Assembly: GCA_012441205.1 (NCBI GenBank)
Contig: GCA_012441205.1_4705.1
Direction: 5' to 3' (one strand)
DNA: 64,000 nucleotides
Source: a phage
A program made the translations under genes and the position numbers. The notes beneath the pieces were generated by a model. That model ran no database searches and had not been told where the DNA came from. It saw only the letters and a program-made list of their open reading frames with translations. Shown one piece after another: positions 3,028 through 27,544 of the stretch (within the stretch, counting starts at the first letter, position 1; every line of letters starts with the position of its first letter).

Positions 3028-3033
3028 ATTATG

Positions 3034-5341: not shown

Positions 5342-5971
5342 ATGAGCGAATATGGTGTTGCCCCCGTAGATGATGAACCGCAAGAAGCACCTGATAAATT
5401 CGAGGTCCGTCTTGACGAAACCCGTAATATCCGCCAACGATTTATTCAACGCCTTGAAATGCTGTTAGATAGCGAATTCAAAGATTTCGAGCTTAATCCT
5501 GGCGCTGATAACAAAGCCATCGTCGACGTCGAAAACGTCGACCGAATAGGTAAGCTGTTGTTGAAATCGTTGGGCGATAACGACAAAGTCGACTTAACGT
5601 TGAAACGTATCAGTGCCGACCAGGCCATGAATGACAGCGCACTGAAAACAGCACAAGCCCTAACCGAAACCATGCTGCGCCGCTTAGGTCAGATGGATCA
5701 ACATCCTCTCGCAGCAGGGGCTGTTTATGAAGGCGAAGTCGTGAAGCCAGTCACGCCTGAAGAACGTGATCGTCGACTTGGTTTTGCGTCATTGGAAGAG
5801 TTCGATAGCAAGGAGTTCTCACCAGGCGTTCTCATCCAGGGACGTGTCGAAGAAACCAGCGATGCTTTCTATGCTAGAATGGCTCAACTGACGGCGTCGG
5901 TTCGTGAGGAGGTATCTCAGAAGATGGCTGCAGATCATCAGTCTTCGGAGGCGTCACACGAGGAGGAATAA
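5342..5971 (+). CDS. hypothetical acidic protein
   Basis: ATG preceded by GGAGA at 8 nt; 209 aa, Glu/Asp-rich. Confidence 0.6.
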   Translation: MSEYGVAPVDDEPQEAPDKFEVRLDETRNIRQRFIQRLEMLLDSEFKDFELNPGADNKAIVDVENVDRIGKLLLKSLGDNDKVDLTLKRISADQAMNDSALKTAQALTETMLRRLGQMDQHPLAAGAVYEGEVVKPVTPEERDRRLGFASLEEFDSKEFSPGVLIQGRVEETSDAFYARMAQLTASVREEVSQKMAADHQSSEASHEEE

Positions 5972-7366: not shown

Positions 7367-7368
7367 AA

Positions 7369-8043
7369 TTAGCCCTCATCAAGGTTATTCTGGAGATGCA
7401 TCGCGGTGAGGATAACGCCAACCGCCGAAACCGATTTTGCCTTGCTGTCTTCAGGGAGCTGCTCCAAGCTTACGGTACCTGTTTCTAACAGCATGCGGTT
7501 CATCGCGTTGAACTTCTTATCGTCACCACCACGAGCCTGCATCAGCTCTCGGTTCACGTTCGGCATCGACCGTCCTAACGTCGCTTGCATTTCCGGCTGG
7601 CTCCAAGTGGAACCTTTACTATCACCCGTCGGCTGATTGGTGAGCTGGTCCTTGGTGTTGTTGTTTTTCGGAATCGAAATTTTAGCACTCAACGTTTCGG
7701 CTTGTCGGCGGTTTGGAATCAGGTACAATCTGGTTGGGCGGTCACGAAGCACCAATTGCCCTGTTTTCTGGTCGGTGAGATAAATGCGTTGGAAGAAAGG
7801 GAAACCGTATTTCTTACCGACTTCCAACGCACGTTTTATCGTCACCTCGTTTTTGTTCATGTTGGGTACCCAGATGGGTAGAATCTCTTTCTTATCCCGA
7901 CATAAACGCATATAGGCATCAAACGTCTCATCATCGATTTCAGCAAAACGTTTTTTGTAAATAGCGTAAGTCGGGCTCGATTCACCCACCAGGTCTTTGA
8001 TATACCCAAGAATGAATTTTTCTGCTGCAGCGCGGTTGGACAT
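7369..8043 (-). CDS. hypothetical protein
   Basis: 224-aa ORF in tight minus-strand array. Confidence 0.55.
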   Translation of the reverse strand: MSNRAAAEKFILGYIKDLVGESSPTYAIYKKRFAEIDDETFDAYMRLCRDKKEILPIWVPNMNKNEVTIKRALEVGKKYGFPFFQRIYLTDQKTGQLVLRDRPTRLYLIPNRRQAETLSAKISIPKNNNTKDQLTNQPTGDSKGSTWSQPEMQATLGRSMPNVNRELMQARGGDDKKFNAMNRMLLETGTVSLEQLPEDSKAKSVSAVGVILTAMHLQNNLDEG

Positions 8044-8052
8044 AAACGTCTC

Positions 8053-8394
8053 CTATTGTCGTGTCTGTTGCGGAAATACCCGAAACACCTGGACAATGAT
8101 GTTCTTGTCCTCGCGGTTGGCGATGTCGATCATGTGTTTTGTTCCAGGACTTTTGAAATCCCAGAACGCAATTAAATGCGTAATGACATCGCCCATCCAC
8201 TCATTGCGTCTGAATCCAGCACCTTTACGATAAGGACCATCCCAATCGGCAGGAAACGTGGTGTATTTAAACCCGTAATCCTTCGCGTAGCGGCGCACAT
8301 GCAAATCAGCGCCTGAATGCGCACCGCCAGCAATGAGATGAACTTTGTCGTGAGGAAGGTTGTGTAACATCTGGTTCATACGCTTTTCGAACAA
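8053..8394 (-). CDS. small Rossmann-like protein, possible SLOG/DUF2493-like
   Basis: Motifs LIAGGAHSGADL ... FPADWD ... GAGFRRNEWM ... LIAFWDFKSPGTKHMI resemble phage-associated SLOG proteins (from memory). Confidence 0.35.
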   Translation of the reverse strand: MFEKRMNQMLHNLPHDKVHLIAGGAHSGADLHVRRYAKDYGFKYTTFPADWDGPYRKGAGFRRNEWMGDVITHLIAFWDFKSPGTKHMIDIANREDKNIIVQVFRVFPQQTRQ

Positions 8395-8447
8395 GGGATA
8401 ATCATCCCAGTAGCGTGATCCCGATACCCCTACACGATAGGGTTCGC

Positions 8448-8768
8448 TTATCTTCCACCGCGCAATGACTTTACGTTGCGTGCGATAAAGGGTGCAACGT
8501 AATCACGGAAATTATGGATCCATCCTTTAATGGGTTGGTTGTCTAGTAAGCACTCACGTACCGAAAACGTACTTACTTCTAATACACCAAACTGTAGTCG
8601 CCAATAGCGATTGATTTCAGCTTGGGTATGTTCTAATGTCATGTACTCAGGAACACGAGCCAATAGGTCGTGTTTAAATTGCTCAGCAATCGCTGGTTGA
8701 TGTGACGCAATTGTCTGCGTGATAACATCAATCAGTTCATGTGCATGCTTGATAGCAGGTGCGGTCAT
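8448..8768 (-). CDS. hypothetical protein
   Basis: 106-aa ORF in same operon-like array. Confidence 0.5.
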   Translation of the reverse strand: MTAPAIKHAHELIDVITQTIASHQPAIAEQFKHDLLARVPEYMTLEHTQAEINRYWRLQFGVLEVSTFSVRECLLDNQPIKGWIHNFRDYVAPFIARNVKSLRGGR

Positions 8769-8780
8769 TTATTTAGCCTT

Positions 8781-10271
8781 TTATTTTTTACTCGGACGAT
8801 TCAATGCGGGTACCGGGTTCTTTGGTTGCTTTGTCTTTTCATCCATCCAGTACGGGAAGTACTCACCAGTACGCATACGCAATAAGTCCATTGTGGACAG
8901 GAACGGCAGCGGGTTAGGATCGTCCAGATACGTCCAGTAACCACGCGTGTTTAACAATACATCCCAATCGAAACCTTTTGCTTTAAGATCGTCGTACAGT
9001 TCCTGTGGGGTGCAATACAGCTGTGGGTTTTCGTAAACCTCTTGACGCCAGAGATTATGCATTTGACACAGCTCCGACGTAATTTCCAGAGCACGCTGTA
9101 AATACTCATCCTCTTCGCAGAGAGAACGAATGGTCGTACGCTGCAACGCAACATCCGGATAAATATCCAAATATACCGTTGAAGCACCATCAGCTGACTT
9201 ACCACCTGACGCATGCATACCCCAACCACGCATCCAATCTTTATCACGCAGGTAGTGGTATTCCGTTAATGATGGTTTAACCCCTTCGCTCTGACTAACC
9301 ACAATCGGGAACGGTAAGCCGGTGGGTCCGTTTTTAGCGCGCATGTTAAAGACTTGAATCAACTGCAGATCGGTATCCCCGATAAGGTTGTCACCAGGCC
9401 CACGCGGATAAAGGACGCGTTTATCCGCGTTCTGAAGAATCGTCAGTTTATCGATTTTCCAGAGGTTATTCGTATAAAACGTGAAGCGTTCCGGGACGTT
9501 CTTAAACTTCTCATCGCCCTTAAACCCTTTCAGTTTTCGTACCGGTTGCTGTCCCGGCATACCACCAACGTTTACACCGTCACCAAGGTGGGCGGTCATG
9601 GTAATGTAGATACCCGCCGACGCTGTGAGTACTGGCATCTGTGATAGAATCTGGCTTTTCGCAGCTGCTGAACGCATCGCTTCAGCATTCAGTTTTGCGC
9701 CACCCGCGGTTTCTTTATCGAACAGTGCATCAACGGCATCGATTGGTAATCCAGAGAAACTGTCGATGAGTACAACGGTCGGCAACCACCAGGTATAGTT
9801 CTCACCGTGTTTATTAATAAACGGAACGGCTTTGCGTTGAGATTTATCTTTGACCTTGTCGTCACGGAATTTCTTAATCGCATCAAACCAAATGTTACCG
9901 CTCATCTGAACAGCATCGGTGATAAACACACGTTCTTCTTCGAAAAGATCGACACCTGCGATATTAGACATGTTCATCGCAAGCGTTAAGATACGTGTTG
10001 TCGTTAACGACATTTCTGTGTCGTAAACGCTACTATTGCTGTTTGCGTAACGATCGATAACGCGTAACAAGCGAAACATTATGAACGTGGTTTTGTTCAT
10101 GTTGCCGCGAGCGCCTGCGCCCTCAACAAGCATCATGCCGCCGTTACAAATGCTTTCACCGTGTTTACCGACATAGTACCGACCACCAGATGTGGGAATA
10201 TCCATTAAGCAACCAATGTTGAGATTAAAACGCATCTCTTCACCAGGAGAAAGGTACTTATTAAGATTCAT
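8781..10271 (-). CDS. hypothetical 496-aa protein, possible RecA-fold NTPase with atypical P-loop
   Basis: NGGMMLVEGAGARGNMNKTTF resembles RecA GG...hhhhEhxG....KTT, and TVVLIDSFSG resembles Walker B hhhhDS; P-loop is non-canonical. SD AAGGAG upstream. Confidence 0.3.
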   Translation of the reverse strand: MNLNKYLSPGEEMRFNLNIGCLMDIPTSGGRYYVGKHGESICNGGMMLVEGAGARGNMNKTTFIMFRLLRVIDRYANSNSSVYDTEMSLTTTRILTLAMNMSNIAGVDLFEEERVFITDAVQMSGNIWFDAIKKFRDDKVKDKSQRKAVPFINKHGENYTWWLPTVVLIDSFSGLPIDAVDALFDKETAGGAKLNAEAMRSAAAKSQILSQMPVLTASAGIYITMTAHLGDGVNVGGMPGQQPVRKLKGFKGDEKFKNVPERFTFYTNNLWKIDKLTILQNADKRVLYPRGPGDNLIGDTDLQLIQVFNMRAKNGPTGLPFPIVVSQSEGVKPSLTEYHYLRDKDWMRGWGMHASGGKSADGASTVYLDIYPDVALQRTTIRSLCEEDEYLQRALEITSELCQMHNLWRQEVYENPQLYCTPQELYDDLKAKGFDWDVLLNTRGYWTYLDDPNPLPFLSTMDLLRMRTGEYFPYWMDEKTKQPKNPVPALNRPSKK

Positions 10272-10370
10272 TGGGTAAAGACTCCTTCGATTCTTCGACT
10301 AATTCTTAGTGTTCAGAGAATAACTATTTTTTAGTTAAGACTGACAACCGCTATTTCCACGAGGACAATC

Positions 10371-11213
10371 ATGCATAAATTTACCATTCCTGAAGACCCG
10401 ATTACACTGCAGACCCTTTGGGATTCACATCGTGCTTTATCAATGGAAGGCTTTGCGCAAGACTTCGCTTCACTTACCGCAGTAACGAATCTTCGCAGTA
10501 TGTTTACCAACGGTAAGAAGTTTGTTACCGATTGGCTTAAGAAACGTGATGTGACGGTTTATCCTAAAGTTTTCGATGACCTCGATACGATTTTTAGCAA
10601 CAACGCTTACAGCGATCTCATTGGGTATCGTGCTTTTATTCCGAATGGTTTAAATGCGCCGATGTCAGATTATGTTGTTGCTTTAACTCAGAGCCTGGAT
10701 AGCGTGATTGGCACCATCCTACCTGATTTGGATAAGCTGACCGTAACGTGCGCTAAAGCCGTCAACGACGTTAACTTCCGTCGTAGTAGTGGTATGGCTC
10801 AAACGCTACCTAAAAACGATCCAGAGAACGTTCTAGAGACGTTACGTGCGATGTTCAAACAAGGGACGGTAACACAGACCACTGTAGGCCGTGCATATAA
10901 GAACGAAGATGATATTCGTCAGATCGGAAAAGATCTGGATGCTTCCCGTATCCGTGCGCTTGACGTTAATCCTAAAGACGTGAAGAAGGCAATCGAACGT
11001 TTCATGGAGGTAGCTGACCGTTTAACCGAAATCCTGGTTCAAGACTACAATGAAGGTGCGGTGAGCAACGCGATGATTCGCGATATTAGTGACGCTATCT
11101 ACCAAACAGCCAAGCAGGCTGAACTGTATGCGTTTCTCGTGAACGCTTTGGCTGAGGCGATCATCGCATATAACGACACTTGGGACGCCGTTAAAAAGAA
11201 CGCGAAAAAATAA
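10371..11213 (+). CDS. hypothetical protein
   Basis: 280-aa ORF, ATG preceded by GAGGA at 5 nt. Confidence 0.6.
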   Translation: MHKFTIPEDPITLQTLWDSHRALSMEGFAQDFASLTAVTNLRSMFTNGKKFVTDWLKKRDVTVYPKVFDDLDTIFSNNAYSDLIGYRAFIPNGLNAPMSDYVVALTQSLDSVIGTILPDLDKLTVTCAKAVNDVNFRRSSGMAQTLPKNDPENVLETLRAMFKQGTVTQTTVGRAYKNEDDIRQIGKDLDASRIRALDVNPKDVKKAIERFMEVADRLTEILVQDYNEGAVSNAMIRDISDAIYQTAKQAELYAFLVNALAEAIIAYNDTWDAVKKNAKK

Positions 11214-11221
11214 CATAATAA

Positions 11222-11257
11222 CCCACCCTACTACCCCGTTAAGGGCGGTAGGGTGGG
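11222..11257. terminator. nested hairpin element between convergent genes
   Basis: CCCACCCTAC-taCCCCgttaaGGGcg-GTAGGGTGGG between 10371..11213 (+) and 11265..11696 (-). Confidence 0.55.
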
Positions 11258-11264
11258 ATAAGGT

Positions 11265-11696
11265 TTATTTGCCGTATAGTTGTACCACTCGTTGTGTCGT
11301 AGGAACGCAGACTCTTACCAGAAGCTTTTTAATCTCCTGACGAATCGTTGCTTTATCATCATAATAAAGCCATGGCGGAACGCGTTGCATTATGCACTGC
11401 ACGGCTTCATCGTAGTTCGTCGTCTCATTAAGTAACGTCTCACTATCCAGATCTTTCCATGCAGTAATACCAAGTCGCGCAGCAAACATCAACGCTGAAA
11501 CCGACTCAGCTATCTCCAATCGCTCATTCATATCCGCAAGACCTTTTAGCATGATGTAATTATCGTCATGCTGGTGCAGGGTACCATACAAACTTCCGAA
11601 GAGAAGTATGCGTTTAGCTTTTGCGGTTAAGAGGAACGATAGGAGAGCGTGTTTCAACGGTTGTTTCTCACGTTCTACCTGTTCGACCATCACCAT
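11265..11696 (-). CDS. hypothetical protein
   Basis: 143-aa ORF. Confidence 0.5.
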   Translation of the reverse strand: MVMVEQVEREKQPLKHALLSFLLTAKAKRILLFGSLYGTLHQHDDNYIMLKGLADMNERLEIAESVSALMFAARLGITAWKDLDSETLLNETTNYDEAVQCIMQRVPPWLYYDDKATIRQEIKKLLVRVCVPTTQRVVQLYGK

Positions 11697-11699
11697 TGA

Positions 11700-13226
11700 T
11701 TACTCCAACACATAACGTGGGTTACTGTATATGTTAGCCCATATACCAACGTCGTCTCCCGACTCAATAATCACAGCGAAACGAAACGCAACATCAGACT
11801 CGCGATATGTTACCGCGTACGCTTTCGTTTCCGGTGATGCTAAATAGCTCAAGTTCAGACGTTGAGGCAGGTCTAACCCCAAGGACATGGTACAAGACGT
11901 AACGCCCTGCTTATCGGGGGTCAGTCTGTAATTCACGTCCACCTTCAAGCTTTTCGTAACCTGCGTAATCGCACTATGCACTTTGGTAACCGTTTTGCCT
12001 TTCTTATCCTTTTCTGTTTCGAAAAGAACGTCGGTAATTTCGGTTACGACTAGACGCGGTGTGGATTCGCGGTTAGCGTCAAGCCATTCATCCAGTAACG
12101 TCTTTAAGAAGTTCAAGGAATCAATCGCACGCCAAGCAAGGTTAGGCGGGTTGCACGCTTCCATTAAAATGGCTGTGTTGGATCCACCTAGCGGAAGATG
12201 CACGCTCTTACCGAGGCCTGTCGGACGCATCGTAAGATCGCACTCACCCTCAAGAATATCGCGATGATATTGACGATGATGAAGGTTATCCGTGTATGCG
12301 ATATACACTGACTCCGTTGTCCCATGCTCTAATACCCGAGATGCATGCGTACGCATAATCTCAACAGCATCATCCGGCTTGCTTAGATAGATAACACTGT
12401 ACGCACTATCGCTAATCCTTTTCCCTAACTCAAGACGTCCCTTGTTGTCTTTATCGGTGTTACCACCGAAATAGATGTAGCGGCCATCTTTCGCACGCTC
12501 TTGCTGCTGGTTGGTGGTAAAGTAGCAGCGTGAGAACGTAAAGAACGGGCTTATTTCCGGTTCGGGGCTCCAATACCCCTTAGCCGGAAGTTCGCGGCGT
12601 ATTTGGGTTCTTACAGCCCAGTCCTGGTTTTGTGATAGATATGTTCCACGCGTTGCCAACATATCCGCACGTTCGTTACCAACATTGCCCTCATGTCCAG
12701 GAACATAGCGCAGCGAAATATCGATAGCGTCGCGCTTCGCATCCCTTATCGCGCTATCGAGTTTCCGCCACCGTTCCGCATTCATTAACGGTTTATTGTC
12801 GGATTTAACCCAGTTGTTCTCTCGCCAATTAGCAAGATGGTTGGTGGCACCTACAACAACATATTGGCTGTCCGACAACAGCTGGATCCGTTTTGCCCCC
12901 TTTGCTTTTCCAAGTTCAATCGCACGTATTGCGGCATCCAACTCAGCCTGATTGTTCGTTACATTGAAACCCAAAGCCTCTAACTCATCCACGTATTCCT
13001 TGGGTTCGACCAGCACAGCGTCTTTAGGAAAGTCGAGTTTAGGGTCAACATAACCGTATTGCGTTGGTTTGGGCTTCCCACTTTTTGAAGGTTCCAAGGT
13101 GCCTTTTATTTCTTTCACCATATCGTAGGTGTAGCCATGCACGCCATAGCCACCATACCCACTCGATGTTGGACGGGATCCTCCATCACAGTAGAAAACG
13201 GCACCAAGCTCAGTATTTCCTGCCAT
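11700..13226 (-). CDS. RNase HI-domain protein fused to ~300-aa C-terminal domain of unknown function
   Basis: N-terminal FYCDGGS, GYGGYG, TNNQAELDAAIRAIE, LLSDSQYVV, GHEGNVGNERADMLA match the RNase HI D-E-D-H-D catalytic pattern; start placed at ATG 13226 (GAGG 6 nt upstream). Confidence 0.7.
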   Translation of the reverse strand: MAGNTELGAVFYCDGGSRPTSSGYGGYGVHGYTYDMVKEIKGTLEPSKSGKPKPTQYGYVDPKLDFPKDAVLVEPKEYVDELEALGFNVTNNQAELDAAIRAIELGKAKGAKRIQLLSDSQYVVVGATNHLANWRENNWVKSDNKPLMNAERWRKLDSAIRDAKRDAIDISLRYVPGHEGNVGNERADMLATRGTYLSQNQDWAVRTQIRRELPAKGYWSPEPEISPFFTFSRCYFTTNQQQERAKDGRYIYFGGNTDKDNKGRLELGKRISDSAYSVIYLSKPDDAVEIMRTHASRVLEHGTTESVYIAYTDNLHHRQYHRDILEGECDLTMRPTGLGKSVHLPLGGSNTAILMEACNPPNLAWRAIDSLNFLKTLLDEWLDANRESTPRLVVTEITDVLFETEKDKKGKTVTKVHSAITQVTKSLKVDVNYRLTPDKQGVTSCTMSLGLDLPQRLNLSYLASPETKAYAVTYRESDVAFRFAVIIESGDDVGIWANIYSNPRYVLE

Positions 13227-13276
13227 TGTAAACCTCATTAATCATTGTCCGTATGATAGCCCAAAGTTGTACGGTA

Positions 13277-13828
13277 TTACCGATTACCGTCAGTTGACGT
13301 TGGTTGATTGCGATCGATTTTCATTGACCGTAATTTTCCACCATTAGTTACACACTGATTGCGCTGTTCGACGGAGGCCAGACTGTTACAGACATAATAA
13401 GTATCGATAAAACGCTCAACGCGTTCTTGAAACTTCCTCCCGGCAACTTGCTCTTTTTCAAAAGTTCGTAATGCACGATCGACCTCACCTTGGAGAATCC
13501 GGTTCTGTTCAACCATACTGTCTATTAAACGGCCTCGCACTTCGTTCGATGTGTAGAGTTGATGAATCAGTTCTCGGTTGGTGTCTCGCGCATAACGCAA
13601 TGTTGCATTTTCCTGACGTAAACTACTCACGTCAGCCATCAAGGTAATGATTTTTTCGCCAGCGAATAACGTCACGATACCCAATACGATGAAAAAGCCC
13701 GTAATCAAGAATATCGAGGACTGTCGAGCTCCATCTCGACGATAGCGTGTGGGCGGTCGCTTACTTCGCCGAAACAACTCGCGAAGAAAAGGGAAAAGCC
13801 AGGGCAACGCCTTGAGTGTAGTAAACAT
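13277..13828 (-). CDS. membrane protein with one TM helix followed by coiled-coil (spanin-like or other membrane factor)
   Basis: Internal start MFTTLKALPW (AAGGA upstream); hydrophobic IFLITGFFIVLGIVTLFA then heptad-like charged region. Confidence 0.45.
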   Translation of the reverse strand: MFTTLKALPWLFPFLRELFRRSKRPPTRYRRDGARQSSIFLITGFFIVLGIVTLFAGEKIITLMADVSSLRQENATLRYARDTNRELIHQLYTSNEVRGRLIDSMVEQNRILQGEVDRALRTFEKEQVAGRKFQERVERFIDTYYVCNSLASVEQRNQCVTNGGKLRSMKIDRNQPTSTDGNR

Positions 13829-13882
13829 GCGTGTGTCCTTGATAGTATGAAATTTCCAATACAACTTAACCGAGGACGTCGA

Positions 13883-15223
13883 ATGATTAGTATTTTTGGT
13901 TTTTATACGTACAAAGGGTACGCTAATAACCACCCAAAAACCACGGCGAAATTCGGTGAGTTCAGTCAGCACAGTGCTACGTTCAGTCGCGAAATCGGCA
14001 TCTATACCAACACGGCGTACGCACGTACGACCTTATTAGTGTTGAATGCCGAAAACGAAGCTGGTGAAGCACAAACGCTGAATGACGACACCGCAGGCCG
14101 CATTCTTCAGGTTGGTCAATGGTTGCTGGAAAAAGCCTCATCAGGCGAAATCCAGGATGACCGAGACCAGGTTATCGGCTACCTAAAAGACGACTTCACA
14201 ACGTATCTGGATTCTATCGACATCCCAACACCCACCACCGATGGTACCGTCTATCTACCGGCGTGGATCAGTTTCAAGATAACCGCCACCGGCGATGTCG
14301 TCAAGATTTGGTTGTCTGATAGCGTATTCCAAAGTCAATATCCAAAATACGAATATGAAGTCGTTCCCCCTGTTCCTAAGGATCAGTTAGATACCTTCTT
14401 CGAAGATCTGGCAACATTGAAGAAACTGGTTGACAGTCGAAGCAGCGAGAAACTGACCGAAGAAATCAACGAGGTGCGCGACCAATTCCCAGACACACAA
14501 TTGTGGACGAAAACATATAAAGCGTACGATTACACCGACGATTCGAAATATATTAATACCGATTGGACGGTGATTATCTACGGTGCAGCAGGTAACAACA
14601 TTGATAATATCAAGGAGTTCCTGCAAAACTGGATTCTTAGCAATAGCACGCACGGACGTCCAGACTGGGAAATCGTTCTGCCGGATCTTTTTATTCCGAC
14701 GGAACACATCTTCATTCCAATCTGGAACCGCCACAGTGCGCCAGAAATGACCAATCAGGCACGTATCTATAGTCCTATATTCGATGATTCGTTGATGGAT
14801 ACCTACCTGAAAAACTTTGCTGATGGTTACGGCGAAACCGCCGAAGTCCGTAAATCGCTTCAAGCGGTGCCGACGTTGTGGCGCTCGATCGGTTTCTTAA
14901 GCGTTGGTAACTCACGTAACCGAGACGGTAAACTTAAGTTCTACGATCGTTGGCCGCAATACGCGCTCATCAGCACAACCAGCATCGATATTAACCGTAT
15001 CGATGATGCGACACGTGAATTCATCACGTTCACTTACGAAATGCTGAAACTGGCAGAATCGCTGACCGAAGACGACCCGGTACCGTTGGGTTATAGTCGT
15101 GTTACGCGTGGTAGCAATAGCTTCTTAGCGAAAAGCCACAACGATGTTCAGTATCTCTTCTTAACAAAAGAAGCGTTCCTGAAGAAAATGCCGGATGAAG
15201 CCGACACGCCTGTTGGAGGTTGA
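13883..15223 (+). CDS. hypothetical protein
   Basis: Track ORF 13847..15223; ATG at 13883 has GAGGA 6 nt upstream. Antisense ORF 14387..14863 judged spurious. Confidence 0.6.
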   Translation: MISIFGFYTYKGYANNHPKTTAKFGEFSQHSATFSREIGIYTNTAYARTTLLVLNAENEAGEAQTLNDDTAGRILQVGQWLLEKASSGEIQDDRDQVIGYLKDDFTTYLDSIDIPTPTTDGTVYLPAWISFKITATGDVVKIWLSDSVFQSQYPKYEYEVVPPVPKDQLDTFFEDLATLKKLVDSRSSEKLTEEINEVRDQFPDTQLWTKTYKAYDYTDDSKYINTDWTVIIYGAAGNNIDNIKEFLQNWILSNSTHGRPDWEIVLPDLFIPTEHIFIPIWNRHSAPEMTNQARIYSPIFDDSLMDTYLKNFADGYGETAEVRKSLQAVPTLWRSIGFLSVGNSRNRDGKLKFYDRWPQYALISTTSIDINRIDDATREFITFTYEMLKLAESLTEDDPVPLGYSRVTRGSNSFLAKSHNDVQYLFLTKEAFLKKMPDEADTPVGG

Positions 15224-15225
15224 TT

Positions 15226-15852
15226 ATGGCTGTAACACGCATGACGCCAAGTCCCGGTGCGGTCGGGGTATTCACAGTATCAGCGCCGTTTACCGTTGGT
15301 GCGTCAACGCTATATACCGTTACAGCGTTGCGAAGATTCAGCGAAGTCATCGGTAGTGGAATCGATCTATTTACGGAACTGTACGAACCGTTATCAATAG
15401 ACAAATCCACATTCGAAGCGCATCTCGAAGCGAATGCTTATCTCGTCACGTTGCAACCGGATTACGGTGCACCCGTACTGGTACCTGATACGTATATCAC
15501 GTCGTACCCAAAGAACGATTCATTGCGGTATCGTCGCATTATTCTGGGTATCGATTTCGGGCCTCTTCCTCCCGGTCTTGACCTTTCGTATTTAACAACG
15601 ATATTGAAAGGTAAGGCCAGTGATATTCTTGGTGTCGAACCTGAAGTTAAAACGATGGAAATCACTCTCGATGATACCGTTACTCAGGAACAACATCAGA
15701 TAAACGAAGCCCGTCGTCAGGCCGCGATAAAAGAGCGAGATACCATATACGCACGTTGTGAAACGCAAGAGAAGCAGATAACGGCTTTACTTGCAACCCA
15801 AAAGCAACTTATCAAATTGCTTCAAGACGCCGGTATCAATCCGACACCTTAA
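15226..15852 (+). CDS. hypothetical protein
   Basis: ATG at 15226 preceded by GGAGG; start overlaps stop of upstream gene. Confidence 0.55.
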   Translation: MAVTRMTPSPGAVGVFTVSAPFTVGASTLYTVTALRRFSEVIGSGIDLFTELYEPLSIDKSTFEAHLEANAYLVTLQPDYGAPVLVPDTYITSYPKNDSLRYRRIILGIDFGPLPPGLDLSYLTTILKGKASDILGVEPEVKTMEITLDDTVTQEQHQINEARRQAAIKERDTIYARCETQEKQITALLATQKQLIKLLQDAGINPTP

Positions 15853-15858
15853 CATATT

Positions 15859-15890
15859 CCCTCCTCCTTCCCTGTTGGGTTGGAGGAGGG
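15859..15890. terminator. nested hairpin element (reverse orientation) between convergent genes
   Basis: CCCTCCTCC-ttCCCtgttGGGtt-GGAGGAGGG; reverse complement is nearly identical to the copy at 43673. Confidence 0.55.
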
Positions 15891-15904
15891 TTATGCTGTC
15901 AAGC

Positions 15905-15920
15905 AAAAAAAAAAAAAAAA
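15905..15920. repeat. homopolymeric A16 tract
   Basis: 16 consecutive A between the hairpin and the stop of 15966..16667; reads as U16 on the minus-strand transcript. Confidence 0.8.
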
Positions 15921-21968: not shown

Positions 21969-22583
21969 CTAACGGCGTTTTGTACCGACCTTCCCATTTC
22001 GATGGTCATCAAGAATACGCCATTCTTCGAACAGGAGTTCGGCTGCGAAATAACCTACAGCGATGCTGTCTATCGCATGCTCATCAAGATTCGCTAACAC
22101 AACACCGTTTCTGGGTGTGATGTTCATGAGGTTCAACACTTTCTGGCGAACATCGTCCTTACCAACACGGGACGTCATAATCCCAACAGCGCGTTTTGCG
22201 CTTCGGTTATCAACCCCTAAGAAAGATACCGTAGGATCAAAATCGATAACCGTTGTATGAATCGCTGAAAACAGCTCGCTGAGCGCCATACCGCTTTGCT
22301 TGAAACGACCGATGAATGGCGTCTCACAAGCGACCGCTTGCGGCTGGTACTCTTGCAATAACGTTGTCAGTGAACGACGGTGTTCTTGGATACGTGCGGC
22401 ACGATTACCGTATCCAAGCGCAATATCGCCATCGGGATCATATCGACGTGAAGCGTGCCATGTCCCTGCATACAGCAGTTCAATATCTTCGACACGCACG
22501 TCCAAACGTAGTAACGACGCACCGAGTGTATCGGTGCCAGGGTCGATTGCCAGAATATCGTAAGCGTATTCTGGTGGGATCAT
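21969..22583 (-). CDS. RuvC-like Holliday-junction resolvase
   Basis: ILAIDPGTDTLG (cf. RuvC ILGIDPGSRVTG), acidic E in ACETPF, and C-terminal DEHAIDSIAVG (cf. DAADALAIAI); start overlaps upstream stop as ATGA. Confidence 0.65.
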   Translation of the reverse strand: MIPPEYAYDILAIDPGTDTLGASLLRLDVRVEDIELLYAGTWHASRRYDPDGDIALGYGNRAARIQEHRRSLTTLLQEYQPQAVACETPFIGRFKQSGMALSELFSAIHTTVIDFDPTVSFLGVDNRSAKRAVGIMTSRVGKDDVRQKVLNLMNITPRNGVVLANLDEHAIDSIAVGYFAAELLFEEWRILDDHRNGKVGTKRR

Positions 22584-23395
22584 GGTGTTACAACAGCCTC
22601 TACTGACCATGGGAAGGTTTTCGCAACAACACCTTCCAGGAAGCGTTCAACTTCCGATTGCTCATACACCGAAAGCTTTTCGAACGGCGTTTGGTCTTCG
22701 GTTAAACCTATCGCGTGAATAGGACCCAGGTCTTTAACCAGAGTGACTTCGCCTTTAACGCCTTCGCGTTTAACGATGATCGCATGATCATTAACCTTGG
22801 GATCATACAGCACGCGCATCATGGTTACCGCGTCATCCGGTTCATGACCGAAATCGATGGCAACACGAGCATTCGTCCCTTCATCATCCAGAAGCTTGCT
22901 CAGCGCTTTACAACGGTCTTCAATCCAATCCAACGCAACCACGGTTTCTTGGCGTAGCTGAACCTCAACTTCTTTTCCTTGTTCGTCGATACGTTTCACG
23001 GTAACAAAATCGTGTAATAGGCGGTCAGGAAGGAGGGAAGCAATAAGCTCAATGTTGGGTTCAGGTTTTTCGTTTTCCAGAATGATGGTCGCTTGTGCGT
23101 CCAGATGTTCTTTAAAACGGATGTAGCGCGTTAATCGCAGAACTTCATCTTGGGATTTTGCGTCTTCGGGAATAATCTCCGTCATGACGTTATAAATCTT
23201 TTCAGCGAACGTCGGAATTACGGTGATTGTAATTCGTGCTGGTGTACCACGCTCCTGGTACTCATCGGCTAACTTCTTCGCCATCCCGTTAAAGTAGGTC
23301 TGGAGAAACGGTTGCTGCGTTAAAAACATTTTCTCCAGATCGGAATAGCGATGCTTGCGTGCATGGCCTAGCTTCTTCATGGGTTTTTTCATCAA
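22580..23395 (-). CDS. hypothetical protein (no metallophosphatase motifs, so not an obvious SbcD/Mre11)
   Basis: 271-aa ORF between the SbcC-like gene and the RuvC-like gene. Confidence 0.55.
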   Translation of the reverse strand: MMKKPMKKLGHARKHRYSDLEKMFLTQQPFLQTYFNGMAKKLADEYQERGTPARITITVIPTFAEKIYNVMTEIIPEDAKSQDEVLRLTRYIRFKEHLDAQATIILENEKPEPNIELIASLLPDRLLHDFVTVKRIDEQGKEVEVQLRQETVVALDWIEDRCKALSKLLDDEGTNARVAIDFGHEPDDAVTMMRVLYDPKVNDHAIIVKREGVKGEVTLVKDLGPIHAIGLTEDQTPFEKLSVYEQSEVERFLEGVVAKTFPWSVEAVVTP

Positions 23396-23413: not shown

Positions 23414-25933
23414 TTAAATAATCGTGACGTGTTCGTTATATGTTTCAGGGAGAATGATGTTCGTTTTATCAAGAACCATACACTCGGCTTTACGGAATGA
23501 TGCATGGTTGATCACATAGTGACTGATGAACCACACCTGGCTTACGCGGTGACCATCAACCAGACGACGAACAAAATCCATGGCATTAGATTGGTGCTGC
23601 GGATCAAATGTTGATGCGAATTCATCTAACATCAACGGATAATCCGTAAACCCCTTGTAATGCATCATCGCGATGATGAACGCGATATTGATAATTTCCT
23701 TTTGTCCCTTACTCCCATAAACAATATCTTTTCGCGGTGTCGGATACTTCTCAGTTAAAAGCGGAAAACGATAGTTCAATCCTTGCGCGTCGATAGCACA
23801 CGGGAGTATCTGAAGTTGGTATTCCCAAATACTCGCAATGATGCCGTTCATGTACTCAACGAACGCGTTGATGGGACCCGCAATTGTTTCGGCAATCAGT
23901 CCGTTGGATGGACTCAACTCATCCAGAACAAGTTGTGCGTAACTGAGCTGTTCTTCCACCTCTTTTTGTGTCGTTTCCAACTGAGCCAGAAGCTGCTGGT
24001 CGGTTTTAGCTTCCTGTAGTTGCTGTTCGACATGACTTATTCGGCGAACTGTATCAGACATCGCAGCACGTAACGATTTCGTGTAGAGGTGTTGCAGATA
24101 CTCTAACCACAGTTGCGTTAACGCTTTATCGCTGTTATCAGAACGTACCTGATCTTCCATAATCGCCGTAATGGTTTCCAATCTACCTTCCGTAGCTGTG
24201 ATGGCTTGTGTTAACCGCTCAACGGTTGTTAACAACTCTGTCCTGTTCTTATAAAGCAATTCTCGACGTTGCTGTAACGGTTCAACATCAACCGCTTGTA
24301 CACGTTCGAGCATGCCTTGAAGATGTTTACGTTCTTGTTCGGCTTGTGTATAACGTGCGAGTTTCTCGAATGCAAGCAACCAATCATTAATGATTCCAAT
24401 GCTGCGGAATCCTAATCCGTTTTTACGTCCTTCTTCCAGCAGATTGTCCCACATGGGTTTAATGGCGTAATAATCCTTCGTCCAACGTGTTAACTGACGA
24501 TGTTGTTCCATCCAGAGCGTATAACGCTGAACCTTCTCGCTAAGCTCAGCTAACGATTTCTCTTGTTCTTCAACCCAAGCACGGCCTTTCTGAATGCGTT
24601 GTTCAATACTCGCTTTGCTGGTCTTTTCCGTTTCACCAACATGAAAGCGATAATTGCATTTTGGACAGCTGGTCTGGGGTTGATGATTCAGATGGTCGAG
24701 ATGCGCTTCCAAATCGGCTAACGCATGTTTCGCGTTACGCAAACGCATTCTTGCTGCCTCTTCCTCCTTGATGTAAGCTTCAGCATCGTAAACATGATAG
24801 GTGTTGTCGGTATCAATCCATTCTTGCAATAGTTCCGTTAACGGAGCCTGAACTTGTGTGAGCTGTTGTAAACAAACCGCAGCGTCCAGATTCATCGTTA
24901 AAAGCTCACCTGGATGATCTTGCTGAAGTTGTTCGTCCAAACATGCAATGCGGGCTTTAATTTGATCGATATCACCTTCGCCAGACTGTTTCAACTGGTC
25001 AAGGATATTATCGATACCCAACAGCTCGTCAACCTGACTTTCGAGTTTTGCATTCGCATTCGCGAGTTGCTCTCTTAGTTCAGCCAGATTCTGCTGTTCT
25101 TGTTGCGATGTTCCTCCTTGGTAACGAACAACCGCACGAAGAAGCTCGCGATTAAAATGATGGGCACGTTGTGCGGATTCCAGAAGCTGTCGTTGATCAA
25201 CATCGCTATCGAATAACGGCAATCCCATCATCGCTTCGAGCGCTGAGCGTTGCTGTTTTAACTCTGCTTCCAATCCCTGGTGGTCGGTGCCCGTGTATTT
25301 CGCTTCAATGCGCTGTGATGTTTCAACCAACTTATTCAGTGTATGCTCATTCACCGCTTTCAGTGAACGTACTTGTTGCTTAACAACCTGAAACAACTCG
25401 AGCGCATAATCGACGTTAACCGGACATATCTGTGTTAATCGTTCGCGGCGTTTCATCGGTCCCATTTCGGTGAACTGATAAGCCGTTTCGTAACCTAGCA
25501 ACAAACGAATGGTGTCATCATTAAGTTCGAAATGTTCTTCAATCAGTTTCCATTGGGCCGGTTGTGTGCCACCACCGTTCAGGTTCTCGCTGTCGTTAAC
25601 GTAGAACTCATGCTTAAACCCTTTTTCTAAACGACTGATAAGACGGTATTGCTTATTACGGTGTTCGCAGCGGTACTCGTAATACCCGTCTTTATCAAAA
25701 TCAGCACGCTCAGGAACGGTCGGATACAGCAAAGGCAATAGACTACTCTTACCGGAACCATTACTGCCTAAAATGAGTTGTACGGGATTATCTGGCCGGA
25801 TGACCAGCTCCCGAATCATCCCGGTATCAAAACGATTGAATCCACGTAAGTGGAGATAGGTGCATCGCATGCTATGATAATCCTTCTTCGATACCTTCTG
25901 AACCACGGGTTCAGAATGCGAAGCTGAAGCCAT
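23414..25933 (-). CDS. SbcC/Rad50-like SMC-family ATPase with zinc-hook
   Basis: N-terminal LILGSNGSGKSSLL (Walker A), long coiled-coil middle with CPKC hook motif, C-terminal LMLDEFAS (Walker B). Functional start may be internal Met at 25870. Confidence 0.7.
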   Translation of the reverse strand: MASASHSEPVVQKVSKKDYHSMRCTYLHLRGFNRFDTGMIRELVIRPDNPVQLILGSNGSGKSSLLPLLYPTVPERADFDKDGYYEYRCEHRNKQYRLISRLEKGFKHEFYVNDSENLNGGGTQPAQWKLIEEHFELNDDTIRLLLGYETAYQFTEMGPMKRRERLTQICPVNVDYALELFQVVKQQVRSLKAVNEHTLNKLVETSQRIEAKYTGTDHQGLEAELKQQRSALEAMMGLPLFDSDVDQRQLLESAQRAHHFNRELLRAVVRYQGGTSQQEQQNLAELREQLANANAKLESQVDELLGIDNILDQLKQSGEGDIDQIKARIACLDEQLQQDHPGELLTMNLDAAVCLQQLTQVQAPLTELLQEWIDTDNTYHVYDAEAYIKEEEAARMRLRNAKHALADLEAHLDHLNHQPQTSCPKCNYRFHVGETEKTSKASIEQRIQKGRAWVEEQEKSLAELSEKVQRYTLWMEQHRQLTRWTKDYYAIKPMWDNLLEEGRKNGLGFRSIGIINDWLLAFEKLARYTQAEQERKHLQGMLERVQAVDVEPLQQRRELLYKNRTELLTTVERLTQAITATEGRLETITAIMEDQVRSDNSDKALTQLWLEYLQHLYTKSLRAAMSDTVRRISHVEQQLQEAKTDQQLLAQLETTQKEVEEQLSYAQLVLDELSPSNGLIAETIAGPINAFVEYMNGIIASIWEYQLQILPCAIDAQGLNYRFPLLTEKYPTPRKDIVYGSKGQKEIINIAFIIAMMHYKGFTDYPLMLDEFASTFDPQHQSNAMDFVRRLVDGHRVSQVWFISHYVINHASFRKAECMVLDKTNIILPETYNEHVTII

Positions 25934-25984
25934 ACTTCAGCGTTATTTTCTATATCGTTATTTAAATCAGTAGGAGATTACAGC

Positions 25985-27073
25985 ATGAGCGACCTGGCAA
26001 CAGACAATCGCACAAAAGGGAGTCAGCTAGCTCCAGACAACAACGTAAGCGTTTTCCGTATCTATGCCTTGGGTACTGTTGCTGCCGACTTTTCCAATAA
26101 AAGTCTGGAGGAAGATCCTAACCAGACGCTGGAGGTCTTTCTTGATGAGATGATGTCAGGCGCTGATGGGAAAGTTGAAGCGGTGGGAAGCGTTAAAGAA
26201 GTCAGTGCAACAGACGCTCAAGGGAACAGCTATACGGCGAAAGCGGCAACAACAACCAGCATACAGTGTTACTGGTTACCCTTCGGCAGTAACCGGATGA
26301 CAGCACCTAACTTGAGGAAAGGTCAGCGTGTGGTGGTTTGGCGTACCGCGGATGAAGAACAACTCTATTGGCAACCCAAAGGAGGGGATAGCGAGCTGAT
26401 GACCATGGAATCGGTTATCCTCACCGTCAGCGCACGTCCTAGCGCCAAGAAGGACCGTAAATCGATTTCAACGGAAGACTGCTATTACCTAATGGTTGAT
26501 ACCTTCCTCAAGAAAGCGGTTATCGGCACCAGCGCACAGCTTGGTGAAGTTACCCAAGTCTACATGGAACTTAATCTGGACGAGGGTTACCTACAGGTTG
26601 CGGACAGCGTTCATCAAAATCTGTTGTTACTCCATTTTGTCGAGCATATGCTGCGTTATCAAAACCAGGACGACAGCATCATCGACGTGACAAAAAAGAA
26701 CATCACGTTCCAGTGCGAGGATACGCTCAAAGCAATCGCTAAGAACGATATCCGAATGAAAGCAAAAAATATTTATACGGAATGTGAGAACTTTGAACGT
26801 ACCAGCAAAACAGAAAGCGTTACGAGTCAGAATGTTTCTTTGAAGTGTGATCGTTACACCGCGCAAGTATCAGGACAGACCACGTTTAAATGTCCTAATA
26901 CGGTATTCACTGGAGCTGTAAGCTTCACAGGTGAAGACGGAAACACGATGACGTTGAATGGGAACTTCGTACACATCGCAGGCTCTTGGCGTTCACCAAC
27001 CGGAACAAACGTATACACCCACGATCACGGTGGTGTAGATCGTGGTAGCGGTCGTACAGACCCGTTCCAATAA
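25985..27073 (+). CDS. hypothetical protein, possible baseplate central-spike (gpV-like) with His-rich apex
   Basis: AGGAG 8 nt upstream of ATG; C-terminal NVYTHDHGGVDRGSGRTDP recalls the HxH iron-binding tip of P2 gpV / phi92 gp138-type spikes (from memory). Confidence 0.3.
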   Translation: MSDLATDNRTKGSQLAPDNNVSVFRIYALGTVAADFSNKSLEEDPNQTLEVFLDEMMSGADGKVEAVGSVKEVSATDAQGNSYTAKAATTTSIQCYWLPFGSNRMTAPNLRKGQRVVVWRTADEEQLYWQPKGGDSELMTMESVILTVSARPSAKKDRKSISTEDCYYLMVDTFLKKAVIGTSAQLGEVTQVYMELNLDEGYLQVADSVHQNLLLLHFVEHMLRYQNQDDSIIDVTKKNITFQCEDTLKAIAKNDIRMKAKNIYTECENFERTSKTESVTSQNVSLKCDRYTAQVSGQTTFKCPNTVFTGAVSFTGEDGNTMTLNGNFVHIAGSWRSPTGTNVYTHDHGGVDRGSGRTDPFQ

Positions 27074-27104
27074 ACAGAAGAAAAAAAAAAGAAATGCAAT
27101 ACAA

Positions 27105-27139
27105 CCTCCTTCCCTAGCCGTCAAGGCCGGGGAAGGAGG
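27105..27139. terminator. nested hairpin element between convergent genes
   Basis: CCTCCTTCC-ctaGCCgtcaaGGCcgg-GGAAGGAGG, preceded by an A10 run. Confidence 0.55.
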
Positions 27140-27154: not shown

Positions 27155-27544
27155 TTAACGCGTTGCATTCTGGATGATTTCTTTTCCGATCTTAACCAAA
27201 GCGGGTATCTGTACAGCGGTTGCGCCTCGATGACGAAACGCGGTCGTTAACGCGGTATCGATACTCACCGCACGTCCGTGAAGACGATCGAAATAGACTT
27301 GAGTGATTGCGGTAGCGTAATCCTTTCGCTGTTTCTTGGTTTGGCTCAACAGCGCCGCACTATGACTAACGATGAAGTAAGCGATTAAGAAGAACGCCGC
27401 TGACCGAGAACCAGGTAGAAAACCTTGTCGCTTAGGGAGCATCTCACAATCGCGAACACTATTATCGTTCGCCAGCTCTTCCATATCAACACAGCATAAT
27501 TTTGCATAGGTGTGGAGATAGTGGGTAAAAGTTGAATTTAACAT
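27155..27544 (-). CDS. hypothetical small protein (putative early gene)
   Basis: 129 aa; last gene of the minus-strand array downstream of the 31 kb promoter-like motifs. Confidence 0.5.
   Translation of the reverse strand: MLNSTFTHYLHTYAKLCCVDMEELANDNSVRDCEMLPKRQGFLPGSRSAAFFLIAYFIVSHSAALLSQTKKQRKDYATAITQVYFDRLHGRAVSIDTALTTAFRHRGATAVQIPALVKIGKEIIQNATR

What the first reader, a model, noticed from the sequence alone, without database searches (positions are those of the whole stretch)
25985..27073. Possible central-spike protein with His-rich apex, located among replication genes
C-terminal ...NVYTHDHGGVDRGSGRTDP resembles the HxH metal-binding tip of gpV/gp138-type spikes. Its position divergent from the SbcC-like gene would fit the scrambled gene order of jumbo phages.
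Basis: inference. Interest (0 to 1): 0.4.

Follow-up and report, generated by a model that had tools for sequence, protein, structure and literature searches.

The report
Jumbo-phage tail spike with built-in tip

Summary
The ORF at 25985-27073 (+), 362 aa, is real and ends ...NVYTHDHGGVDRGSGRTDPFQ as described. The window comes from a close relative of Escherichia phage Goslar (97.3% nt, 98.9% aa over this gene).

The ortholog, Goslar gp13, was built as the trimeric central spike in the 2026 Goslar virion cryo-EM model. The matching PDB chain (36za_qs, 3 copies) is wrongly named "Tail terminator gp51".

Residues 22-252 are homologous to the phiKZ central spike gp164 (E 2e-27). An AlphaFold model hits the phiKZ spike structures first (Foldseek 1e-17).

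A C-terminal profile of the HxH-bearing relatives matches the solved apex domains of Mu gp45 and P2 gpV with the histidines in register. Pfam Apex and TIGR01644 hits are colinear but below their cutoffs.

phiKZ's spike ends bluntly and carries a separate PAAR tip (gp163.1). No such gene was detected in the window or in Goslar. The spike most likely sharpens itself with a fused metal-holding histidine cage (H346/H348 from three chains).

The position next to the SbcC-like gene is conserved synteny from phiKZ to Goslar, not local scrambling.

Verdict: interpretation supported, already known, low interest.

The parts
25985..27073 (+). Central spike gene, ortholog of Goslar gp13 and homolog of phiKZ gp164; 362 aa plus stop
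   Evidence: ORF. PDB 36za_qs matches at E 6e-245 and phiKZ gp164 (6orj) at E 2e-27. PHROG 3216 E 1e-61. Goslar gp13 is the spike with 3 copies.
25972..25976 (+). Shine-Dalgarno sequence AGGAG, 8 nt upstream of the ATG
   Evidence: Read directly from the sequence. The upstream 51 nt are identical in Goslar.
26042..26719 (+). Residues ~20-245: conserved spike body, an N-terminal OB-fold-type beta domain followed by a beta-sheet domain. This is the part shared with phiKZ gp164.
   Evidence: AlphaFold pLDDT is mostly above 90 over residues 20-270 and all-beta. Foldseek hits 9xph_I at 1.3e-17 and 6orj at 2.4e-15. phmmer aligns residues 22-252 to gp164. All invariant family columns of A3 (G62, W97, P108, W129, E188) lie here.
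26720..27004 (+). Residues ~246-340: region that should form the intertwined triple beta-helix in the trimer. Its length varies among relatives.
   Evidence: It is coil or short strands in the monomer model. Pfam Phage_spike PF18715 matches residues 294-336 at E 0.006-0.08, below threshold. TIGR01644 phage_P2_V positions 118-191 align to residues 277-360. Indels of about 19-21 aa relative to P0002 and P0003 are seen. The beta-helix assignment is an inference from the gp164 and gpV structures.
27005..27070 (+). Residues ~341-362: apex domain (TNVYTHDHGGVDRGSGRTDPFQ)
   Evidence: Pfam Apex PF18946 matches residues 345-359 at 16.1 bits for the full protein and 19.3 bits for the last 75 aa; the cutoff is 20.8. 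The A2 profile hits Mu gp45 (3vto, 1.6e-5), gp86 (9zd7, 9e-6), 9cuy (2e-5) and P2 gpV (3qr7, 6e-4) with the HxH aligned.
27020..27028 (+). Codons CAC GAT CAC = H346-D347-H348, the proposed metal-coordinating HxH. Three copies in the trimer would form a six-histidine cage.
   Evidence: Sequence. Conserved in P0002 (HDH) and P0003 (HTH). Chance occurrence 0.56%. The role of HxH in P2 gpV is described in bioRxiv 10.1101/2023.02.25.529910.
27105..27139 (.). GC-rich hairpin (CCTCCTTCCC...GGGAAGGAGG) between the convergent spike gene and the ORF at 27155-27544 (-). It is a likely bidirectional transcription terminator.
   Evidence: Sequence. Identical in Goslar, where it is annotated as a putative terminator at 11186-11220.
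23414..25933 (-). Syntenic partner, not part of the spike: the SbcC/SMC-like gene transcribed divergently. Its true start is probably near 25870.
   Evidence: PHROG 77 E 1e-74. phiKZ gp165 aligns from residue 1 at 25870 down to 23420, E 1.4e-71. The same arrangement is seen.

Best explanation
The gene encodes the trimeric central spike, the membrane-piercing needle of the baseplate hub, of a Goslar-like chimallivirus jumbo phage.

Three copies assemble under the gp27-like hub (Goslar gp48, encoded just outside the window). The N-terminal beta domains dock to the hub. The middle of the three chains intertwines into a beta-helix.

Unlike phiKZ gp164, which ends bluntly and is capped by a separate PAAR protein (gp163.1), this spike carries its own fused apex domain. 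In that domain H346 and H348 from each chain form a six-histidine cage around a buried metal ion, Fe by analogy with P2 gpV and Mu gp45. The result is a rigid, pointed tip.

On sheath contraction the spike is driven through the E. coli outer membrane ahead of the tail tube and is then released.

Shown: the identity of the protein, its homology to gp164, its spike fold, its copy number and position in the virion of the 99%-identical ortholog, and sequence-profile homology of the C-terminus to solved apex domains.

Inferred: metal binding, the absence of any tip protein, and the piercing role.
For: The protein is 98.9% aa identical to Goslar gp13. It matches PDB 36za_qs over its full length at E 6e-245, and that chain is present in 3 copies. 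The Goslar cryo-EM paper states that gp13 is the spike with three copies and C3 symmetry, sitting under the spike cap gp48, and names no tip protein.

phiKZ gp164 (6orj, 'Central spike of phiKZ phage tail') matches at E 2e-27 by sequence. By structure, 9xph_I scores 1.3e-17 and 6orj 2.4e-15. These are followed by eCIS, PVC, R2-pyocin, VgrG and T4 gp5 spikes. The model has pLDDT 83.

The C-terminal profile matches the apex domains of Mu gp45 and P2 gpV and two other tail-tip proteins at E 9e-6 to 6e-4, with HxH in register. Pfam Phage_spike followed by Apex, and the C-terminal end of TIGR01644 phage_P2_V, are colinear with the C-terminus.

HxH is conserved in relatives at 55% and 49% identity and has a 0.56% chance occurrence. 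phiKZ gp164 lacks HxH, and its downstream gene gp163.1 is a PAAR protein (PF05488, 28.7 bits, above the cutoff of 27). No gp163.1-like sequence occurs in the window. None of the 81 phage records with a gp163.1 match is an Escherichia phage, although the collection searched includes the full Goslar genome.

Published rule: spikes with a C-terminal HxH have a fused Fe-binding apex and no tip protein, while those without it carry a PAAR protein.

Purifying selection is strong, pN/pS 0.044.
Against: The single-sequence Pfam Apex score is below the curated cutoff (16.1 or 19.3 bits against 20.8). TIGR01644 is far below its cutoff (18.6 against 46.75). The apex assignment therefore rests on a profile built from relatives that I selected for having HxH.

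The AlphaFold monomer gives no confident structure for residues 348-362. No trimer could be modelled.

The Goslar paper does not mention a metal, histidines or an apex. I could not inspect the 36za coordinates.

PAAR proteins are diverse, and a divergent or non-PAAR tip elsewhere in the genome is not excluded by tblastn. In P2 the apex is dispensable in laboratory infections, so its functional importance is uncertain.
Confidence: 0.85

Rival explanations
1. It is the central spike, but the HxH is incidental or only a folding register. The tip is formed by a separate, so far unrecognised tip protein (a divergent PAAR or an ORFan like T4 gp5.4) encoded elsewhere in the genome.
For: The closest structurally characterised homolog, phiKZ gp164, uses a separate PAAR tip. 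The Pfam Apex score is below the cutoff. Blunt-ended metagenomic relatives P0004 and P0005 have no PAAR gene beside the spike, so tip genes can be remote. Only a tblastn-level search for PAAR was possible.
Against: The Goslar baseplate paper states that all hub/spike density was assigned and lists no tip protein. The C-terminal profile matches solved fused apex domains in register. HxH-GG is conserved at 49-55% identity. The published rule says HxH spikes lack tip proteins.
Confidence: 0.07
2. It is the spike with a fused histidine-cage apex, but the cage holds a metal other than iron (for example Zn or Ni). Alternatively it mainly stabilises trimer register, as in tail fibres, rather than hardening a piercing tip.
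For: HxH cages also occur in fibres and tailspikes, where they are thought to keep chains in register. The P2 apex is dispensable in the laboratory. The Goslar-clade apex sequence (VYTHDHGGVDRGSGRTDPFQ) differs from the commoner G-S-T-HxH form of the family.
Against: Every solved spike apex described in the literature read here holds Fe. The motif sits about 16 residues from the C-terminus, as in gpV and gp45.
Confidence: 0.06
3. It is the tail terminator, as the PDB molecule name 'Tail terminator gp51' on chain 36za_qs says.
For: Only the name attached to the PDB chain.
Against: Goslar gp51 is a 521-aa protein encoded at 53087-54652, and the paper describes it as a hexamer at the neck. The 362-aa chain is identical to gp13 at all four positions where the window differs and is present in 3 copies. 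Fold and sequence both match central spikes.
Confidence: 0.01
4. It is a generic 'baseplate assembly protein' located elsewhere in the baseplate (wedge or pin), as the RefSeq and PHROG names loosely suggest.
For: RefSeq and PHROG 3216 use the name 'baseplate assembly protein'.
Against: That name derives from P2 'baseplate assembly protein V', which is itself the spike. Direct placement in the phiKZ and Goslar virions is at the central spike.
Confidence: 0.01

Closest known systems
Escherichia phage Goslar gp13 (HOV27_gp013, YP_009820698; PDB 36za chains incl. qs)
   Same: It has 98.9% aa identity and the same length of 362 aa. It has the same neighbours, upstream region and terminator. It was placed by cryo-EM as the trimeric central spike.
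   Different: There are four conservative substitutions (V67A, I93V, V329I, I331V) and 29 nt differences. The source phage is a distinct Goslar-like isolate at about 97.5% nt identity.
Pseudomonas phage phiKZ gp164 central spike (PDB 6orj, 9xph)
   Same: The N-terminal body is homologous (residues 22-252, E 2e-27, about 29% identity), and it is the top structural match. It plays the same role under a gp27-like hub. It has the same divergent arrangement with the SbcC-like gene gp165.
   Different: gp164 is 293 aa, ends bluntly (...FTAPRYDFT) without HxH, and is capped by a separate monomeric PAAR protein gp163.1 encoded immediately downstream. The window protein is 69 aa longer, has a fused HxH apex, and has no adjacent or detectable PAAR gene.
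P2 gpV, Mu gp45 and phi92 gp138-type spikes with an iron-loaded apex (PDB 3qr7/3qr8, 3vto/3vtn/9ki1; Pfam Apex PF18946; TIGR01644)
   Same: The order is the same: OB-fold, then beta-helix, then apex with HxH about 13-17 residues from the C-terminus. The C-terminal profile matches at E 1.6e-5 (Mu gp45) and 6e-4 (gpV), in register. [quoted passage not shown]
   Different: The N-terminal body is much larger (about 245 aa, with an extra beta domain) and is not detectably similar in sequence to gpV; there was no Pfam Phage_base_V hit. The Apex and TIGR01644 scores are below curated cutoffs.
Pseudomonas phage OBP gp146 (PDB 6p2a chimera)
   Same: It is a jumbo-phage member of the same spike family; tblastn covers residues 20-359 at E 5e-28. 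The P2 apex paper lists it among HxH-bearing spikes. It shows that the fused-apex form of this jumbo-phage spike family was already recognised.
   Different: It shares only about 26% identity and infects a different host (Pseudomonas fluorescens).
T4 gp5/gp5.4 and T6SS VgrG/PAAR
   Same: The overall cell-puncturing logic is the same: a trimeric OB-fold plus beta-helix spike under a gp27-like hub. Weak structural matches were found (4uhv, 1k28, 2z6b).
   Different: Those spikes are blunt and capped by a separate tip protein. T4 gp5 also carries a lysozyme domain. No lysozyme domain or PAAR partner is found here.

Membership tests
phiKZ gp164 / Goslar gp13 jumbo-phage central spike family (PHROG 3216) | Significant full-body sequence similarity to family members | tested here: met
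   PHROG 3216 scores E 1.3e-61 over residues 20-360. gp164 scores E 2e-27. There are 1,162 representatives at E<=1e-3 and 278 phage records.
phiKZ gp164 / Goslar gp13 jumbo-phage central spike family (PHROG 3216) | Spike fold: N-terminal OB-type beta domain plus beta-structure matching solved gp164 | tested here: met
   The AlphaFold model has pLDDT 83.3. Foldseek hits 9xph_I at 1.3e-17 and 6orj at 2.4e-15, probability 1.00.
phiKZ gp164 / Goslar gp13 jumbo-phage central spike family (PHROG 3216) | Trimer on the tail axis beneath the gp27-like hub in the virion | not testable with these tools
   This was not tested on the window protein itself. It is shown for the 98.9%-identical Goslar gp13 (3 copies, C3; 3 chains in 36za) and for phiKZ gp164.
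phiKZ gp164 / Goslar gp13 jumbo-phage central spike family (PHROG 3216) | Conserved genomic context: divergent from the SbcC/SMC-like gene | tested here: met
   phiKZ gp164/gp165, Goslar gp13/gp12, and metagenomic relatives P0002-P0005.
Fused-apex spikes (P2 gpV / Mu gp45 / phi92 gp138; Pfam Apex PF18946) | [quoted passage not shown] | tested here: met
   H346-D-H348 lies 16 residues from the end. It is conserved in close relatives. It is in the same register as 40 other family members.
Fused-apex spikes (P2 gpV / Mu gp45 / phi92 gp138; Pfam Apex PF18946) | Score above the curated Pfam or NCBIfam threshold | tested here: not met
   PF18946 scores 16.1 bits for the full protein and 19.3 bits for the last 75 aa, against a cutoff of 20.8. 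TIGR01644 scores 18.6 against 46.75. Nine of 35 HxH relatives hit Apex, best E 6e-7.
Fused-apex spikes (P2 gpV / Mu gp45 / phi92 gp138; Pfam Apex PF18946) | Profile-level homology of the C-terminal domain to solved apex domains | tested here: met
   The A2 profile hits 9zd7 gp86 at 9e-6, Mu gp45 3vto at 1.6e-5, 9cuy at 2e-5 and P2 gpV 3qr7 at 6e-4, with HxH aligned. Caveat: the profile members were chosen for having HxH.
Fused-apex spikes (P2 gpV / Mu gp45 / phi92 gp138; Pfam Apex PF18946) | Buried Fe ion coordinated octahedrally by six His in the trimer | not testable with these tools
   This needs the 36za coordinates or map, a trimer model, or metal analysis. The monomer model is unconfident at residues 348-362.
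PAAR-capped blunt spikes (T4 gp5+gp5.4, VgrG+PAAR, phiKZ gp164+gp163.1) | No C-terminal HxH, and a partner PAAR/tip protein encoded in the genome | tested here: not met
   HxH is present. There is no gp163.1-like sequence in the window (best E 1.1). None of the 81 phage records matching gp163.1 at E<=1 is an Escherichia phage, and the collection searched includes Goslar. The sensitivity is limited to tblastn.
Pfam Phage_base_V (PF04717) / Phage_GPD (VgrG-gp5 OB-fold region) | Sequence match to the Pfam model | tested here: not met
   Neither family is listed at E<=1 in hmmscan of the full protein. The resemblance to gpV, VgrG and gp5 N-domains is only structural and weak.
Tail terminator (PDB name on 36za_qs) | Being Goslar gp51, a hexamer capping the tube at the neck | tested here: not met
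   gp51 is 521 aa and is encoded elsewhere. The chain equals gp13 and has 3 copies. The paper assigns gp13 as the spike.

The most novel reading that the evidence does not exclude
Within one homologous jumbo-phage spike family, the membrane-attacking tip is a swappable module. The Goslar clade (like OBP, and about a quarter of family representatives) carries a fused histidine-cage apex and needs no tip protein. The phiKZ clade has a blunt end plus a PAAR cap. Other members carry at least two further conserved C-terminal tails ('...APN(V/I/L)..' and '...GPxxxI') whose tip partners are unknown and are not encoded next to the spike. If tip type tracks host envelope type, this would be a host-range determinant in chimalliviruses that neither the Goslar nor the phiKZ structure paper discusses.
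Probability: 0.5. Interest if true: 0.3.

Novelty: already known. Interest (0 to 1): 0.12.

Why it matters
The result confirms that a tool-less reading of a C-terminal HxH can correctly pick out a phage central spike.

It adds three small practical points:
- The RefSeq name 'baseplate assembly protein' and the PDB chain name 'Tail terminator gp51' both obscure that this is the spike.
- Goslar-type phages probably use a self-sharpened metal-cage tip, whereas their relative phiKZ uses a PAAR cap. This matters when phiKZ is used as the structural template for other nucleus-forming jumbo phages, or when spikes are engineered.
- The spike/SbcC gene pair is a stable synteny marker for this phage group.

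None of this changes current understanding of contractile injection systems.

Tried and rejected
There were no hits at E<=1. Only sub-threshold Apex and Phage_spike hits appeared.
- **Tail-terminator reading from the PDB name.** Rejected, because gp51 is 521 aa and hexameric.
- **Comparative test 'blunt-ended relatives have an adjacent PAAR gene, HxH relatives do not'.** Inconclusive. Neither HxH relatives (P0002, P0003) nor blunt 'APN' relatives (P0004, P0005) have a PAAR gene within 4 kb. PAAR adjacency is specific to the phiKZ clade.
- **Sigma-70 promoter scan around the gene.** The number of matches was no higher than in shuffles (3 against 2.3). These phages use their own RNA polymerases, so nothing can be concluded.
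- **AlphaFold monomer for the apex.** It is unconfident at residues 348-362, as expected for a domain that exists only in a metal-bound trimer. The tool cannot model trimers.
- **Foldseek against the PDB.** It did not return 36za itself, because the library stops at 2026-04-08. I therefore could not inspect the experimental apex.
- **Hub protein gp48.** I looked for it in the window. It lies about 1.7 kb beyond the right end.

Full report
**Observation.** An AGGAG ribosome-binding site sits 8 nt upstream. A GC-rich hairpin (27105-27139) follows the stop codon, between this gene and a convergent ORF. The protein has only six histidines. H346 and H348 form the only HxH, and in 200,000 shuffles of the sequence an HxH fell within the last 26 residues in only 0.56% of cases. 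The gene is transcribed divergently from an SbcC-like gene (PHROG 77, E 1e-74), and a RuvC-like resolvase gene lies beyond that.

**Source.** The gene is 97.3% identical in DNA and 98.9% in protein to gp013 of Escherichia phage vB_EcoM_Goslar, a 237-kb nucleus-forming jumbo phage. Window 1-15920 matches the last 16 kb of the Goslar record at 97.6%. The window therefore crosses the arbitrary end/start of that record and comes from a Goslar-like relative. Against Goslar the gene has 25 synonymous and 4 conservative nonsynonymous differences (pN/pS 0.044), so it is under strong purifying selection.

**What it is.** Three independent lines say it is the central spike.
- *Direct structural placement of the ortholog.* A PDB chain (36za_qs, 362 aa, three copies) matches over the full length at E 6e-245. 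It is identical to Goslar gp13 at the four positions where the window differs. [quoted passage not shown] The PDB molecule name on that chain, 'Tail terminator gp51', is a labelling error: Goslar gp51 is 521 aa and forms a hexamer at the neck.
- *Homology.* Residues 22-252 match phiKZ gp164 (PDB 6orj, 'Central spike of phiKZ phage tail', and 9xph) at E 2e-27. The phiKZ atlas paper (PMC13250141) places gp164 as the trimeric spike under the gp27-like hub gp101. PHROG 3216 matches at E 1e-61. The family is large, with 1,162 representatives at 50% clustering and 278 phage genomes, mostly jumbo phages of Pseudomonas, Erwinia, Salmonella, Vibrio, Serratia and Aeromonas.
- *Fold.* An AlphaFold2 model built on a 66-sequence alignment (pLDDT 83.3, pTM 0.71) hits 9xph_I (1.3e-17) and 6orj (2.4e-15) first. 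These are followed by the spike proteins of extracellular contractile injection systems, the PVC spike, the R2 pyocin spike, VgrG1 and T4 gp5.

**The apex.** On the single sequence the evidence is suggestive but below threshold. Pfam Apex (PF18946, 'GpV Apex motif') matches residues 345-359 at 16.1 bits (19.3 on the last 75 aa) against a cutoff of 20.8. It is preceded colinearly by Phage_spike (PF18715) at residues 294-336. NCBIfam TIGR01644 (phage_P2_V) aligns its C-terminal end (positions 118-191 of 192) to residues 277-360 at 18.6 bits, against a cutoff of 46.75.

At the family level the evidence is stronger. Of 154 family proteins in hand, 41 carry an HxH in a fixed register about 16 residues from the C-terminus. 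An alignment of the last 75 residues of the window protein plus 34 such members (A2) also shows a conserved Gly six residues after the second His, which I did not select for. A profile of that alignment hits solved spike apex domains with the HxH in register: tail-tip gp86 (9zd7, 9e-6), Mu gp45 (3vto, 1.6e-5; 9ki1, 1e-4), a baseplate protein (9cuy, 2e-5) and P2 gpV (3qr7, 6e-4). The caveat is that profile members were chosen for having HxH. The closest full-length relatives (55% and 49% identity) keep HDH or HTH followed by GG.

The literature read here states that three copies of this HxH form an octahedral histidine cage around a buried Fe ion. It also states that a C-terminal HxH identifies an apex domain, and that spikes lacking it carry a PAAR tip protein instead (bioRxiv 10.1101/2023.02.25.529910; PMC12407873).

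**Contrast with phiKZ.** phiKZ gp164 (293 aa) ends ...FTAPRYDFT with no HxH. The gene immediately downstream, gp163.1, encodes an 88-aa PAAR protein (PF05488, 28.7 bits, above the cutoff of 27) that the phiKZ atlas places as the monomeric spike tip. The window protein is 69 residues longer. Its gene is followed directly by a terminator and convergent genes. No gp163.1-like sequence exists in the window (best E 1.1). None of the 81 phage records that match gp163.1 at E<=1 is an Escherichia phage, although the collection includes the complete Goslar genome. The Goslar paper lists no tip protein and says all hub/spike density was assigned. It never mentions histidine, iron, metal or apex.

**Mechanism.** The best-supported mechanism is a self-sharpened spike. 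The N-terminal beta domains dock to the hub, the middle forms an intertwined beta-helix, and the fused apex is held by an H346/H348 metal cage. On sheath contraction it is driven through the outer membrane. Identity, fold, copy number and position are shown, partly via the 99%-identical ortholog. Metal binding, the absence of a cap and the functional importance of the apex are inferred. In P2 the apex is dispensable under laboratory conditions.

**Gene position.** In fact the divergent spike/SbcC-like pair is conserved. phiKZ gp165, divergent from gp164, is the full-length ortholog of the window's SbcC-like gene (E 1.4e-71). All four metagenomic relatives examined (55% to 31% identity) have an SMC_N-type gene of 819-846 aa divergent from the spike gene. 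The hub gene gp48 lies about 1.7 kb beyond the window's right end.

**What did not work.**
- No Pfam Phage_base_V or VgrG/gp5 hit was found.
- The sigma-70 promoter scan was uninformative.
- The monomer model is unconfident at residues 348-362, and trimers cannot be modelled here.
- The Foldseek PDB library predates 36za.
- I tested whether blunt-ended relatives carry an adjacent PAAR gene. The result was inconclusive, because none of the metagenomic loci, blunt or HxH, has one within 4 kb.

**Novelty and verdict.** The protein is essentially Goslar gp13, already placed experimentally as the spike. Its family's founding structure (phiKZ gp164) dates from 2019. The HxH/apex versus PAAR rule is established, and a jumbo-phage member of the same family with an HxH (OBP gp146) is already cited in that literature. 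The only increments are the explicit statement that Goslar-type spikes carry a fused apex where phiKZ uses a PAAR cap, the conserved synteny, and the PDB label error. The finding is already known and of low interest.

Noticed in passing
PDB 36za chain qs (matches window 25985-27070): The PDB molecule name for this 362-aa, 3-copy chain is 'Tail terminator gp51', but the sequence is Goslar gp13, the spike. The real gp51 is 521 aa. This is likely an entity-naming slip in the composite virion deposition.
   Followed up: yes
window 25923-25941: A 7-bp hairpin (GCTGAAG-CCATA-CTTCAGC) followed by a T-rich run lies just upstream of the spike gene. In Goslar it is annotated as a + strand terminator, although no nearby + strand gene precedes it. 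On the - strand, the ATG at 25933 that starts the longest SbcC-like ORF sits in the hairpin loop. The phiKZ gp165 alignment and the Goslar annotation suggest the real SbcC start is at about 25870. That would place the hairpin in a 114-bp divergent intergenic region.
   Followed up: partly
window 1-15920: This stretch matches Goslar 221389-237307 at 97.6%, so the window runs across the end/start of the Goslar GenBank record. The source genome is either permuted differently or assembled as a circle.
   Followed up: partly
family representatives P0004-P0154 (C-termini): Besides the HxH class (41 of 154), many homologs end in conserved '...APN(V/I/L)(x)' tails (31 of 154, for example ...TAPNLQYN) or 'GPxxxI' tails (13 of 154). 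phiKZ gp164's ...TAPRYDFT resembles the first type. These may be docking ends for separate tip proteins. Two such relatives have no PAAR gene within 4 kb.
   Followed up: partly
window 26720-26900 (residues ~246-305) versus P0002 and P0003: The presumed beta-helix region differs in length among close relatives, with gaps of about 19-21 residues in the 55% and 49% identical homologs. This suggests gain or loss of helix turns and therefore variable spike length.
   Followed up: no
window 27076-27092: The A-run just after the spike stop codon is 10 A in the window and 6 A in Goslar. The flanking terminator hairpin is identical. It is a homopolymer length polymorphism or a sequencing artefact.
   Followed up: no
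window 22580-23395 (-): A 271-aa ORF of unknown function lies between the RuvC-like and SbcC-like genes, with only weak Pfam and PHROG hits. It is conserved in position in Goslar (gp011) and in the metagenomic relatives (275 aa and 294 aa genes in L008 and L010). It may be a partner of the SbcC-like or RuvC-like proteins, for example an SbcD substitute.
   Followed up: no
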